This document shows, in pieces, positions 23,461-24,357 of a stretch of 64,000 bases of DNA. Location: contig NZ_AP019368.1 of NCBI RefSeq assembly GCF_004295685.1, positions 1,056,364 through 1,120,363 on the forward strand, given 5' to 3'. The stretch is from Fluviispira sanaruensis. Its GTDB lineage: Bacteria > Bdellovibrionota_B > Oligoflexia > Silvanigrellales > Silvanigrellaceae. How positions within the stretch are numbered: position 1 is the first letter of the stretch; every line of letters begins with the position of its first letter. Position numbers and translations under genes: made by a program. Below the pieces are notes generated by a model. That model saw only the letters and a list, made by a program, of their open reading frames with translations, searched no databases and was not told the origin of the DNA.

Positions 23461-23527
23461 TTTTTTTTTACATTAATATTTTTTTTAAATCATCAGTTTG
23501 TATTTTCTAAACTTCATCTGGGTATGC

Positions 23528-23594
23528 GTCATGTTAGGGGCTTCGATGGGCAGAGTTGCTGGCCGCAAATGCCCATCGAAGCCCCTAACATGAC
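23528..23594. repeat. Perfect 25-bp inverted repeat (stem-loop) with a 17-nt loop, GC-rich in an AT-rich context
   Basis: The left arm is gtcatgttaggggcttcgatgggca, the loop is gagttgctggccgcaaa, and the right arm is tgcccatcgaagcccctaacatgac. Confidence 0.85.
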
Positions 23595-23650
23595 TCCCCC
23601 CTCTGAGTTATAATATTCGTCAATCTGCTGAATTGTTCAGACAATGTCGC

Positions 23651-23727
23651 TTAAAATGAACACTGATGATTTATGCTAAGTAGCTTTACGTATGCAACGT
23701 GCTGTGAATTAAAATGAACACTGATGA
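23651..23727. repeat. Two identical 19-nt direct repeats, ttaaaatgaacactgatga, 58 bp apart
   Basis: Exact copies lie at 23651-23669 and 23709-23727. The related ataaatcatcagtttg (reverse-complement-like core actgatga) occurs at 23443-23458 and 23487-23502, with the first copy overlapping the regulator stop codon. Confidence 0.8.
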
Positions 23728-23842
23728 ATAAAGTAAAAGCACAGCAATAAAGCAGAGTGAAAAAAATGAAGTTCCGTAAAAAACAATTTGAAAATATAAG
23801 TTAGCTTATTTAGCATAATAAACACGAAAAAAAAGCTTGAAC

Positions 23843-23884
23843 GAAACTCATGAAGTGACCCAAAAAACGATTTTAAATTATAAG
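23843..23884. repeat. Dispersed repeat C1, with partner C2 at 29628-29670
   Basis: gaaactcatgaagtgacccaaaaaacgattttaaattataag is matched by gaaaactccgcagtgacccaaaaaaacgattttaaaatataag. The two are about 90% identical over roughly 42 bp, in the same orientation, 5.8 kb apart. Confidence 0.8.
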
Positions 23885-23931
23885 ATAACATAGTTAGACT
23901 GAATTTTAGGTAAAGGAAAAGCATTCTTGAA

Positions 23932-23958
23932 GGGCATTTGCGGTCAGCAACTCTGCCC
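23932..23958. repeat. Inverted partial copy of the 23548-23574 hairpin core
   Basis: gggcatttgcggtcagcaactctgccc is the reverse complement of gggcagagttgctggccgcaaatgccc with one mismatch. Confidence 0.8.
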
Positions 23959-24066
23959 TGAAAGGATGCTCTTTTTTTACCGAGAATAAAGAAAGAAATG
24001 AAAACTTATAAATTTAAAATCTCCCGAAATAAACTTGCGCAAAAAGCACTGCCCTGAAAGCATGCT
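23953..24066. repeat. Direct repeat of ctgccctgaaag[g/c]atgct at 96-bp spacing. It bounds dispersed repeat A (23971-24052).
   Basis: Copies lie at 23953-23970 and 24049-24066. The enclosed unit, tttaccgagaataaagaaagaaatgaaaacttataaatttaaaatctcccgaaataaacttgcgcaaaa, recurs at 27451-27530. Confidence 0.8.
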
Positions 24067-24357
24067 ATTTCTTTTACTTTGAGTTTAAATCAAAATGGAA
24101 GTATTTCATTTTTAAAATCAAACGATAAATTTCTACAAAGTTTTGTTACATTATAAATAATATTTATTAAATTGTATAATTTATTAAATATGCTTATACT
24201 TTTTTTAATAAAATTAAACATAAGATTTTATTATAATAAGATAAGTATATTATAAATTATTATTTTTTACTTAATTTTTAAAACTCAATATTTTACATAG
24301 ATCATAATTTATTTTTGTTCCTGTCTAATAACAATGTCTTATATAGGAGATTTTACA

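What the first reader, a model, noticed from the sequence alone, without database searches (positions are those of the whole stretch)
23461..24333. 870-bp repeat-dense noncoding region with a perfect 25-bp stem-loop, its inverted partial copy, and several short tandem direct repeats
Directly downstream of the sigma-54 regulator there are four notable elements. (a) A GC-rich perfect 25-bp stem with a 17-nt loop lies at 23528-23594. (b) The loop plus inner stem recurs in opposite orientation about 400 bp away, at 23932-23958, with one mismatch. (c) ctgccctgaaag[g/c]atgct is repeated directly 96 bp apart. (d) ttaaaatgaacactgatga occurs twice, 58 bp apart, and ataaatcatcagtttg occurs twice, 44 bp apart, the first copy containing the regulator stop codon. 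This density of structured repeats in about 0.9 kb is not ordinary intergenic sequence. Candidates are a cluster of REP/MITE-like elements, the footprint of repeated insertion or excision events, a recombinase target (the inverted core copies could be recombination partners), or a structured ncRNA. The stem-loop is not followed by a T-run, so a plain terminator is less likely.
Basis: seen in the sequence. Interest (0 to 1): 0.6.

Follow-up and report, generated by a model that had tools for sequence, protein, structure and literature searches.

The report
Repeat-rich spacer at a gene-insertion hotspot
The repeats are real, but the 870 bases are a patchwork at the edge of a gene-insertion hotspot in Fluviispira sanaruensis: two long hairpins sharing one tip, a duplicated promoter-like module and insertion scars, which look like ordinary by-products of DNA copying errors rather than a new genetic device.

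Summary
All four observations are confirmed, with small coordinate corrections. The stretch is not one element. The window is Fluviispira sanaruensis. In Silvanigrella the sigma-54 regulator directly abuts a convergent shikimate-kinase gene. Everything from 23461 to 33545 is therefore lineage-specific insertion, and the finding is its left junction.

It has three layers:
- 23442-23740: a perfect 25-bp palindrome (H1) flanked by 2+2 inverted copies of a 21-nt motif.
- 23745-24140: two tandem 85-nt promoter-like modules (third copy at 29614), a strong terminator-like hairpin (H2) whose tip is an inverted copy of H1's tip, then duplicated H2 flanks (third copy at 27445).
- 24141-24358: the upstream region of a 3.3-kb cassette, 79.5% identical to a cassette at another locus in F. 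multicolorata.

F. vulneris has H1's 5' arm but no hairpin. A near-identical strain shows a compensatory stem change and the same change in both left motifs (joint chance below 1e-5).

Best reading: RNA 3'-end hairpins plus duplication and insertion scars, made and homogenised by replication template switching. I found no Rfam family, sigma-54 promoter, recombinase or other copies in 204 kb. A REP-like family and an invertible switch remain untested, because the whole genome and the reads were out of reach.

The parts
22000..23460 (+). Sigma-54-dependent response regulator gene (context). It lies at the left edge of the insertion zone.
   Evidence: Pfam finds Response_reg, Sigma54_activat and AAA_lid_14. 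Orthologues follow feoAB in all relatives.
23445..23465 (+). L1, a copy of the 21-nt motif TAAATCATCAGTTTGATTTTT. It contains the regulator stop codon. The 6-bp A/T mini-stem followed by T9 that I describe comes from reading the sequence, not from a fold.
   Evidence: Position 23451 is A here and C in strain L001, the same change as in L2.
23486..23506 (+). L2, the second direct copy of the motif.
   Evidence: D3, 90% over 21 nt. Position 23492 is A here and C in L001.
23528..23594 (.). H1: a perfect 25-bp palindrome with a 17-nt loop that holds the mini-stem TTGC/GCAA.
   Evidence: L001 has a compensatory change, 23535 T to A with 23587 A to T. F. vulneris has a homologue of the 5' arm only (28/38) and forms no hairpin.
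23548..23577 (+). Tip copy 1: GGGCA, 17 nt, TGCCC, plus 3 nt. It is the left arm of the long-range inverted repeat.
23585..23614 (+). Sigma-70-like promoter match (CTAACA, 18 nt, TATAAT). A C-tract lies in its spacer, C6 here and C8 in L001.
   Evidence: 10 of 12 consensus positions. The indel is at 23595-96. TAATATTCGT is conserved in F. vulneris.
23651..23676 (-). R1, an inverted copy of the L motif. It matches L1 15/15 (GCATAAATCATCAGT).
   Evidence: (I4, I6).
23709..23738 (-). R2, the second inverted copy. Its 19-nt core is identical to R1.
   Evidence: D4, I3.
23745..23830 (+). Module a: an 85-nt promoter-like unit (GTTCCG, 18 nt, TATAAG).
   Evidence: (D6).
23829..23915 (+). Module b, the tandem copy (GTGACC 23855-60, 18 nt, TATAAG 23879-84). 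It would start transcription near 23891, just before H2.
23909..23981 (+). H2: a long interrupted hairpin with an A-rich 5' arm and a U7 3' arm, resembling a bidirectional intrinsic terminator. Its apex (23929-23958) is tip copy 2, inverted.
   Evidence: (-40.5 kcal/mol, z = -7.4 on +; -30.9, z = -6.0 on -). The tool's terminator scan missed it because it only allows loops of 3-8 nt.
23953..24042 (+). S1: the 3' arm of H2 plus about 60 nt of flank. It is the reference copy of a triplicated segment.
   Evidence: (D2, D7).
24049..24140 (+). S2: a tandem, more diverged copy of S1. It starts with CTGCCCTGAAAGCATGCT.
24141..24357 (+). The AT-rich upstream region that belongs to the 3.3-kb cassette.
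   Evidence: blastn aligns window 24141-27439 to F. multicolorata L005 7418-10730 at 79.5% over 3326 nt. In L005 the cassette follows rpsG.
24358..27439 (+). Cassette genes: a secreted protein split by an in-frame stop, a lipoprotein, and a 174-aa protein. No Pfam or NCBIfam family matches.
27445..27525 (+). S3: the third copy of the H2 flank. It lies directly after the cassette and just before the stop codon of the convergent MFS gene.
   Evidence: (D2, 47 nt, 79%).
29614..29700 (+). Module c: the third copy of the promoter-like module, upstream of an ABC exporter gene.
   Evidence: (32 nt, 94%, E = 7e-5).

Best explanation
The 870 nt are a composite spacer at the left edge of a lineage-specific insertion zone of about 10 kb. 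That zone lies between the sigma-54 response regulator and a convergent shikimate-kinase gene.

Shown:
- The two genes abut in Silvanigrella.
- Fluviispira species carry different inserts at this spot.
- The last roughly 220 nt of the finding are the upstream region of a 3.3-kb paralogous cassette.
- Copies of the H2 flank bracket that cassette.
- An 85-nt promoter-like module is tandemly duplicated here and recurs 6 kb away.

Inferred mechanism:
- H1 and H2 act on RNA as 3'-end or terminator hairpins. H2 has the full A-run, stem and U-run anatomy of the bidirectional terminators seen elsewhere in this window.
- Before the cassette arrived, H1 and H2 lay about 70-80 nt downstream of two convergent genes, the regulator on + and the MFS gene on -. 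Each then showed the same apical loop in its own transcript.
- Together they insulate the regulator from the inserted genes.

Inferred origin:
- Replication template switching and slippage produced the perfect H1 palindrome, the inverted copy of its tip in H2, and the short direct duplications (41, 58, 84 and 96 nt).
- The same process keeps the copies identical.

This would explain why the sister species has only one arm of H1, and why four of the five substitutions between strains in this stretch come as coordinated pairs.
For: Insertion hotspot:
- In S. aquatica and a relative, the regulator stop is 8-13 nt from the convergent SKI gene.
- F. multicolorata, F. vulneris and another relative hold different genes there.
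- The window is F. sanaruensis.

Cassette boundary and bracketing repeats:
- The cassette begins at 24141, 79.5% identical to L005.
- S1, S2 and S3 bracket it.

H2 as terminator:
- It folds at -40.5 kcal/mol, z = -7.4, with a U7 tail.
- Other terminators in the window have the same A-run, stem and T-run style, for example 10340-10374 and 21950-21989.

H1 is derived:
- F. vulneris aligns over the 5' arm and the start of the loop (28/38), but does not fold (z = +1).

Homogenisation:
- The window and L001 differ by 3.6% in a tract spanning 22338-23596, against about 0.2% elsewhere. Of the 38 substitutions in the coding part, 32 are at third codon positions.
- In the non-coding part of that tract, the H1 stem keeps perfect pairing through T:A to A:T, and L1 and L2 both change A to C.
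- Simulation gives P = 0.007 and P = 0.005 for these singly, and 0 of 200,000 trials for both together.
- Template switching is documented to create perfect stems and multi-base compensatory changes (PMC8794818).

No coding remnant, known RNA or tRNA:
-. The 20-aa ORF inside H1 is destroyed in L001 (read directly from the alignment).
Against: - H1 has no U-tract, so termination by H1 is conjecture.
- There are no transcript data, so every promoter and terminator call rests on consensus or folding.
- Only one outgroup carries the homologous block. Loss of the hairpin in F. vulneris cannot be separated from gain in F. sanaruensis.
- The coordinated substitutions fit selection on a function (protein or RNA binding) as well as they fit mechanical homogenisation.
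- The model assigns no role to the 2+2 inverted L/R motifs.
- L001 is a metagenome-assembled contig, so the divergent tract could be a strain chimera. The alleles themselves are still real.
Confidence: 0.5

Rival explanations
1. A small RNA or regulatory leader. Either the module-b promoter (TSS near 23891) or the promoter-like site after H1 (TSS near 23621) drives a transcript. The transcript would be about 90 nt or about 360 nt, and it would end at the H2 terminator. H1 could be a paralogous hairpin on the other strand. The identical loops would be the functional surface.
For: - Promoter-like hexamers lie directly upstream of a strong hairpin with a U7 tail.
- The module recurs upstream of another gene, which is consistent with a real promoter.
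- Short collinear blocks (TAATATTCGT, GCTTTAC.TAT) are conserved with F. vulneris.
- The loop is unchanged between strains, while the stem shows a compensatory change.
Against: - No Rfam match, even at E up to 10, apart from spurious microRNA hairpin hits.
- F. vulneris has no hairpin at the H1 position.
- The region 23600-24020 is identical between the two strains, but so is most of the genome, so this says nothing about constraint.
- The C6 versus C8 difference changes the spacer of the first promoter.
Confidence: 0.2
2. A non-autonomous mobile element or REP/REPIN-like family. One version is a MITE bounded by the inverted L and R motifs, carrying H1. Another is a pair of short palindromic units in inverted orientation (the two tips), mobilised in trans.
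For: - L1 and R1 are perfect 15-nt inverted repeats 235 bp apart, and each end has a second copy.
- The tip is itself a small palindrome and is present twice in inverted orientation.
- The locus is an insertion hotspot, and a decayed TnpB-like fragment lies at its right edge.
Against: - No other copy of the tip, H1 or the L/R motif was found in the 64-kb window or in about 140 kb of related loci.
- Plasmid, phage, viral and metagenome collections gave no real hit.
- No target-site duplication flanks L1 and R1 (read from the sequence).
- The H1 5' arm is at the orthologous place in F. vulneris, so it is not a recent insertion.
- The IS200/IS605 model, as I recall it, has end hairpins in direct orientation on one strand. 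Here the two tips are inverted.
Confidence: 0.12
3. An array of protein-binding sites. The four L/R motifs, two on each side of H1 and the promoter-like site, bind one DNA-binding protein that loops or represses this region. That protein might be the adjacent regulator.
For: - There are four copies of a 21-nt motif in a 2+2 inverted arrangement around a promoter-like site.
- L1 and L2 change together between strains.
Against: - There is no sigma-54 promoter (GG-N10-GC) anywhere in 23400-24420 for the adjacent activator to act on.
- The regulator's helix-turn-helix is identical in the two strains, although L1 and L2 differ.
- The motif is not a dyad.
- R1 and R2 did not change with L1 and L2, though they lie outside the divergent tract.
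Confidence: 0.1
4. An invertible DNA switch. A site-specific recombinase inverts 23578-23928 between the two 27-30-nt tip copies. This flips three promoter-like sites and dismantles both long hairpins at once.
For: - A 30-nt inverted repeat (93%) flanks a 351-bp segment that holds promoter-like sites, all facing genes for secreted proteins.
- Each tip looks like a core site with inverted arms around an asymmetric centre.
- By construction, inversion would leave only the 5-bp inner stems (my inference from the sequence).
Against: - No recombinase among the ORFs scanned with Pfam, 38 of the 48 of 150 aa or more in the window.
- The complete genome, the MAG contig and the Logan contig all show the same orientation.
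- The Logan contigs break at 23945 and restart at 23992. That is a 46-nt gap over the H2 3' arm, not the branch pattern expected of a mixed orientation.
- The single mismatch sits in the centre of the putative core.
Confidence: 0.06

Closest known systems
Bidirectional Rho-independent (intrinsic) terminators between convergent genes
   Same: H2 has an A-rich 5' flank, a stable G+C-containing stem and a U7 tract. It sits downstream of the regulator and, before the cassette arrived, downstream of the convergent MFS gene. Other terminators in the window have the same style.
   Different: The stem is unusually long (about 29 pairs, interrupted) and carries a 17-nt structured apex. H1 has no U-tract at all.
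Hairpins created and maintained by replication template switching (quasi-palindrome correction; Monttinen and Loytynoja 2022, PMC8794818)
   Same: One arm is an exact reverse complement of pre-existing neighbouring sequence, and the outgroup has only that arm. There is a compensatory double change between alleles, and a reverse-complement copy of 27-30 nt lies 351 nt away.
   Different: That work concerns RNA genes, with ancestral reconstruction over many taxa. Here there is one outgroup and no evidence that the hairpin is a functional RNA.
REP / BIME / REPIN elements
   Same: Short imperfect palindromes sit in intergenic DNA as an inverted pair, downstream of genes.
   Different: Only two copies are seen in about 204 kb of Fluviispira DNA. 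They are 351 nt apart rather than tens of nt. There is no conserved GTAG-type head and no RAYT gene in the window. Genome-wide copy number is unknown.
Invertible promoters (fimS-type switches, Bacteroides invertons)
   Same: Inverted repeats of 27-30 nt bracket a few hundred bp that contain promoter-like sequence, next to genes for secreted or surface proteins.
   Different: There is no nearby recombinase and no evidence of two orientations. Each repeat sits at the apex of its own long hairpin.
MITEs, and palindrome-associated elements derived from IS200/IS605
   Same: There are terminal inverted repeats (15/15), an internal strong hairpin and a small size (235-297 bp). A decayed TnpB-like fragment lies in the same insertion zone.
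   Different: There is no target-site duplication and no other copies were found. Part of the sequence is orthologous in a sister species.

Membership tests
Intrinsic (Rho-independent) terminator | Stable G+C-containing stem-loop | tested here: met
   H1 folds at -61 kcal/mol (z = -9) and H2 at -40.5 kcal/mol (z = -7.4).
Intrinsic (Rho-independent) terminator | U-rich tract immediately 3' of the stem | tested here: inconclusive
   H2 meets this (CUCUUUUUUU, 23968-23978). H1 does not (UCCCCCCUCUGAG). The consensus scan reported no terminators, but it only allows loops of 3-8 nt.
Intrinsic (Rho-independent) terminator | Transcript 3' ends map to the tract | not testable with these tools
   No RNA-seq or Term-seq data were available.
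Rfam RNA families | Score at or above the family gathering threshold | tested here: not met
   There were 0 hits across the whole window. In E-value mode, only microRNA-hairpin hits far below threshold appeared.
REP / REPIN / BIME | Many dispersed copies per genome | not testable with these tools
   No further copies were found in the window or in related loci. Both genome-contig scans returned 0. A pattern that matches F. vulneris L003 did not recover that genome, so the genus appears to be absent from that collection.
REP / REPIN / BIME | Short imperfect palindrome, paired in inverted orientation at short spacing | tested here: inconclusive
   The palindromic unit and the inverted pair are present, but the spacing is 351 nt.
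REP / REPIN / BIME | Cognate RAYT (Y1 transposase) gene | tested here: not met
   No RAYT was found among the 38 window ORFs of 150 aa or more that I scanned with Pfam; 10 further ORFs of that size were not scanned. The rest of the genome was not examined.
MITE | Terminal inverted repeats | tested here: met
   L1 and R1 match 15/15, or 83% over 24 nt.
MITE | Target-site duplication flanking the repeats | tested here: not met
   The flanks are GGGT|GCAT... and ...ATGC|TAAG, with no duplication.
MITE | Multiple copies, and presence/absence polymorphism at orthologous sites | tested here: not met
   No other copies were found in 204 kb. The core block is orthologous in F. vulneris.
Invertible promoter (inverton) | Inverted repeats flanking a promoter-bearing segment | tested here: met
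   There is a 30-nt inverted repeat around a 351-bp segment. The promoters are consensus matches only.
Invertible promoter (inverton) | Both orientations present in a population | not testable with these tools
   Three assemblies have the same orientation. No reads were available.
Invertible promoter (inverton) | Site-specific recombinase | tested here: not met
   None was found among the 38 window ORFs of 150 aa or more that I scanned with Pfam; 10 further ORFs of that size were not scanned.
Sigma-54 promoter or enhancer for the adjacent activator | -24 GG and -12 GC elements with canonical spacing | tested here: not met
   The best score in 23400-24420 is 6 of 12.
Integron attC site | R'' (RYYYAAC) at the 5' end and R' (GTTRRRY) at the 3' end, an imperfect stem with extrahelical bases, and an integrase nearby | tested here: not met
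   H1 has GTTAGGG in the 5' arm and CCCTAAC in the 3' arm, which is the wrong order and fails the consensus. The stem is perfect. No integrase was found. The consensus is taken from my own knowledge.
Template-switch-generated hairpin | The derived arm is the reverse complement of adjacent pre-existing sequence, and the outgroup lacks it | tested here: met
   F. vulneris has the 5' arm (28/38) and no hairpin. This rests on a single outgroup.
Template-switch-generated hairpin | Clustered, coordinated multi-base changes | tested here: met
   There is a compensatory pair in H1 and parallel changes in L1 and L2. Both occurred together in 0 of 200,000 simulations.

The most novel reading that the evidence does not exclude
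The two tip copies are core sites of a hairpin-swapping switch. Recombination between them would invert 351 bp that carry three promoter-like sites. It would also destroy both long insulating hairpins, because each outer stem would lose its partner. That would couple promoter orientation to terminator removal upstream of a cassette of secreted proteins.

A milder version: the identical loops, presented on opposite strands in the 3' regions of two convergent genes, are a recognition module for one RNA-binding factor or nuclease.
Probability: 0.07. Interest if true: 0.65.

Novelty: new member of a known kind. Interest (0 to 1): 0.3.

Why it matters
If the main reading holds, this is a clean bacterial case of replication template switching building a perfect 25-bp hairpin and keeping it perfect. 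The same process would be homogenising nearby repeats at a gene-insertion hotspot. That is useful as an example but not surprising. It also warns that dense structured repeats next to a regulator need not be a regulatory device. The finding would only become important if reads showed inversion between the hairpin tips, or if the tip proved to be a genome-wide element in a phylum where no REP-like families have been described.

Tried and rejected
- **Known RNA families.** Rfam gave no hits at gathering thresholds on the whole window. At E up to 10 on the region it gave only spurious microRNA hits.
- **tRNA or tmRNA attachment site.** ARAGORN found none.
- **Sigma-54 promoter.** None was found in the region.
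- **Coding remnant.**
  - Small ORFs lack ribosome-binding sites, and the H1 ORF is broken in L001.
  - tblastn with neighbouring genes from relatives found nothing in the spacer.
- **Co-variation of the regulator's DNA-binding helix with L1/L2.** The helix is identical in both strains.
- **Tandem repeats.** TRF found nothing relevant.
- **Copies elsewhere.**
  - Two genome-contig scans gave 0 hits. The second pattern should have hit F. vulneris, so that collection does not cover the genus.
  - Two metagenome scans gave 0 hits and one chance hit in an unrelated, coding-like contig.
  - Two viral scans gave 0.
  - blastn against plasmids and phages gave 0.
- **Exact-protein look-ups.** F. sanaruensis proteins are not on record, so the rest of the genome could not be sampled.
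- **Logan contig break inside H2.** I considered it as evidence for inversion. I rejected it because the neighbouring contig restarts 46 nt later with no branch signature.
- **attC, dif-like and IS200/IS605-end readings.** I rejected these on site anatomy.
- **Technical failure.** One fuzzy-regex script timed out. blastn-short replaced it.
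Full report
**Observation**

- The 25-bp perfect stem with a 17-nt loop lies at 23528-23594.
- Its loop and inner stem recur in reverse complement at 23932-23958, matching 26 of 27 bases. 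Extended to 30 nt the match is 93%, with 351 nt between the arms.
- CTGCCCTGAAAG[G/C]ATGCT is repeated 96 nt apart.
- TTAAAATGAACACTGATGA is repeated exactly, 58 nt apart.
- TAAATCATCAGTTTG is repeated 41 nt apart, not 44. The first copy covers the regulator's stop codon.

Shuffled versions of the window never reproduce the palindrome or the long-range inverted repeat. H1 folds at about -61 to -64 kcal/mol as RNA (z = -9 to -10) and at -34 kcal/mol as DNA.

- The second tip copy is the apex of its own long hairpin, H2 (23909-23981). H2 folds at -40.5 kcal/mol, z = -7.4. It has an A-rich 5' arm and a U7 run in the 3' arm. This is the same A-run, stem and T-run style as other terminators in this window.
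- The two short repeats are inverted copies of each other. L1 and L2 on the left and R1 and R2 on the right nest around H1, and L1 and R1 match 15/15.
- An 85-nt module with a GTGACC, 18 nt, TATAAG promoter-like core occurs twice in tandem (23745-23830 and 23829-23915). It occurs a third time at 29614-29700, upstream of an ABC exporter gene.
- The 3' arm of H2 and its flank exist in three copies: 23953-24042, 24049-24140 and 27445-27525.

**Context**

The regulator's closest relatives are Fluviispira proteins. The downstream 418-aa ORF is 100% identical to a Fluviispira sanaruensis protein.

In Silvanigrella aquatica and a relative, the orthologous regulator is followed within 8-13 nt by a convergent shikimate-kinase gene. 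In the window that gene is at 33546-34373. Everything from 23461 to 33545 is therefore lineage-specific.

Other Fluviispira species and a further relative carry different genes at the same spot. This is an insertion hotspot, and the finding is its left junction.

At its right junction there is a frameshifted fragment resembling the C-terminus of TnpB. The Pfam match to Cas12f1-like_TNB has E = 8e-4, below the cutoff.

**The cassette**

Window 24141-27439 aligns at 79.5% nucleotide identity over 3326 nt to a cassette in F. multicolorata. That cassette sits after rpsG, in an unrelated neighbourhood. A more distant paralogue exists at a third locus.

The homology starts about 220 nt upstream of the first gene, so the AT-rich last quarter of the finding is the cassette's own upstream region. 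Copies S2 and S3 of the H2 flank bracket the cassette.

Before the insertion, H2 would have lain about 80 nt downstream of the convergent MFS gene. H1 lies 68 nt downstream of the regulator. Each transcript would then have carried the same apical loop. This reconstruction is inference.

**Comparative evidence on H1**

F. vulneris has, at the orthologous place, a 38-nt block 74% identical to the 5' arm and the first part of the loop. It has no 3' arm and no fold (z = +1).

A metagenome-assembled strain (L001) is about 99.8% identical to the window, except for a tract spanning 22338-23596. That tract is 3.6% divergent, and 32 of its 38 coding substitutions are at third codon positions. This is typical of an imported allele. 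The tract ends at the foot of H1.

In the non-coding part of the tract there are five substitutions, and four of them are coordinated:
- 23535 T to A with 23587 A to T keeps the stem perfect.
- 23451 and 23492 are the same A to C change in L1 and L2.

Random placement gives P = 0.007 for the first and P = 0.005 for the second. Both occurred together in none of 200,000 trials. The repeats are therefore either selected or actively homogenised.

Template switching during replication is documented to create perfect stems in one step and to produce multi-base compensatory changes (PMC8794818). It also accounts for a reverse-complement copy of the tip 351 nt away. I take this as the most economical origin, on the strength of a single outgroup.

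**What it is not**
- There is no Rfam family and no tRNA or tmRNA.
- There is no sigma-54 promoter for the neighbouring activator.
- There is no coding remnant. The 20-aa ORF inside H1 is broken in L001.
- No recombinase or transposase appears among the ORFs I scanned with Pfam, which were 38 of the 48 of 150 aa or more in the window; 10 went unscanned.
- No other long G+C-rich hairpin, and no other copy of the tip, was found in about 204 kb of Fluviispira DNA.
- Public collections gave nothing real.

The genome collection evidently lacks this genus, because a pattern that matches F. vulneris did not recover it. F. sanaruensis proteins are not indexed either. Genome-wide copy number therefore remains unknown.

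**Mechanism and rivals**

My preferred reading has confidence 0.5. H2 acts as a bidirectional intrinsic terminator. H1 acts as an RNA 3'-end or stability hairpin. The region is a patchwork of duplicated promoter modules and insertion scars, generated and homogenised by template switching.

The rivals are:
- a small RNA or leader ending at H2 (0.2)
- a REP- or MITE-like element (0.12)
- a protein-binding array formed by the L/R motifs (0.1)
- an invertible switch between the tips (0.06)

A Logan contig from the same run as L001 ends inside the H2 loop. The next contig restarts 46 nt later with no branching signature. I read this as a coverage gap over the hairpin, not as inversion.

**Verdict**

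This is a lineage-specific junction spacer whose striking repeats are best explained by known mutational processes and ordinary transcript-end structures. It is of modest interest unless whole-genome copy counts or read-level orientation data say otherwise.

Noticed in passing
window 33200-33400 (+): A frameshifted fragment resembles the C-terminus of TnpB (…DSGIGMFKSILKYK…, …RTCSKCSEKLP…). The Pfam match to Cas12f1-like_TNB has E = 8e-4, below the cutoff. It is probably a decayed IS200/IS605-family element at the right edge of the insertion zone.
   Followed up: partly
window 33020-33110 (-) and L005 11420-11510 (+): By eye, a roughly 90-nt element with the hairpin CCCCGACTTTAGAAGTCGGGG looks shared between F. 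sanaruensis and F. multicolorata, in non-coding DNA. I did not align the two copies. There is no Rfam hit at E up to 1.
   Followed up: partly
window 24733-24735; L005 7980-7982: The first cassette gene is a secreted protein, 566 aa in the intact paralogue L006. In F. sanaruensis and its sister strain an in-frame stop splits it into 133 + 418 aa. In F. multicolorata a different in-frame stop, 11 codons upstream, splits it into 115 + 444 aa. These are independent nonsense changes with intact downstream frames.
   Followed up: partly
window 22338-23596 versus L001: A 1.26-kb tract is 3.6% divergent, mostly at third codon positions, in an otherwise roughly 99.8% identical pair. It covers most of the regulator and ends at the foot of H1. 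It is either a recombination import or a strain chimera in the MAG.
   Followed up: partly
window 23414-23460 versus L001, L003, L004: A 10-nt deletion in the window changes the regulator's last residues (…LQIKLKKRVHKSSV versus …LQIKYNKIKK…) and moves the stop codon into repeat L1.
   Followed up: yes
window 23597-23602: A C-tract directly after H1 is C6 in the window and C8 in L001. It lies in the spacer of the predicted -35/-10 pair.
   Followed up: no
window 56700-56685 (-) and 10642-10627 (-): These are the best sigma-54 promoter-like sites in the window (AGGCACTTTAAGTGCT and AGGCATAAGAGTTGCT). Both lie in intergenic DNA and are possible targets of a sigma-54 activator.
   Followed up: no
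window 29677-29760 (+): Downstream of module c there is a GTTGC…GCAAC stem and a CCCAAAAA/TTTTTGGG hairpin, ahead of the ABC exporter gene. This could be a leader or a small RNA.
   Followed up: no
L009 380-402: The only metagenome match to the 23-nt tip lies in an unrelated, G+C-rich, coding-like contig, and the flanks do not match. I judge it a chance hit.
   Followed up: yes
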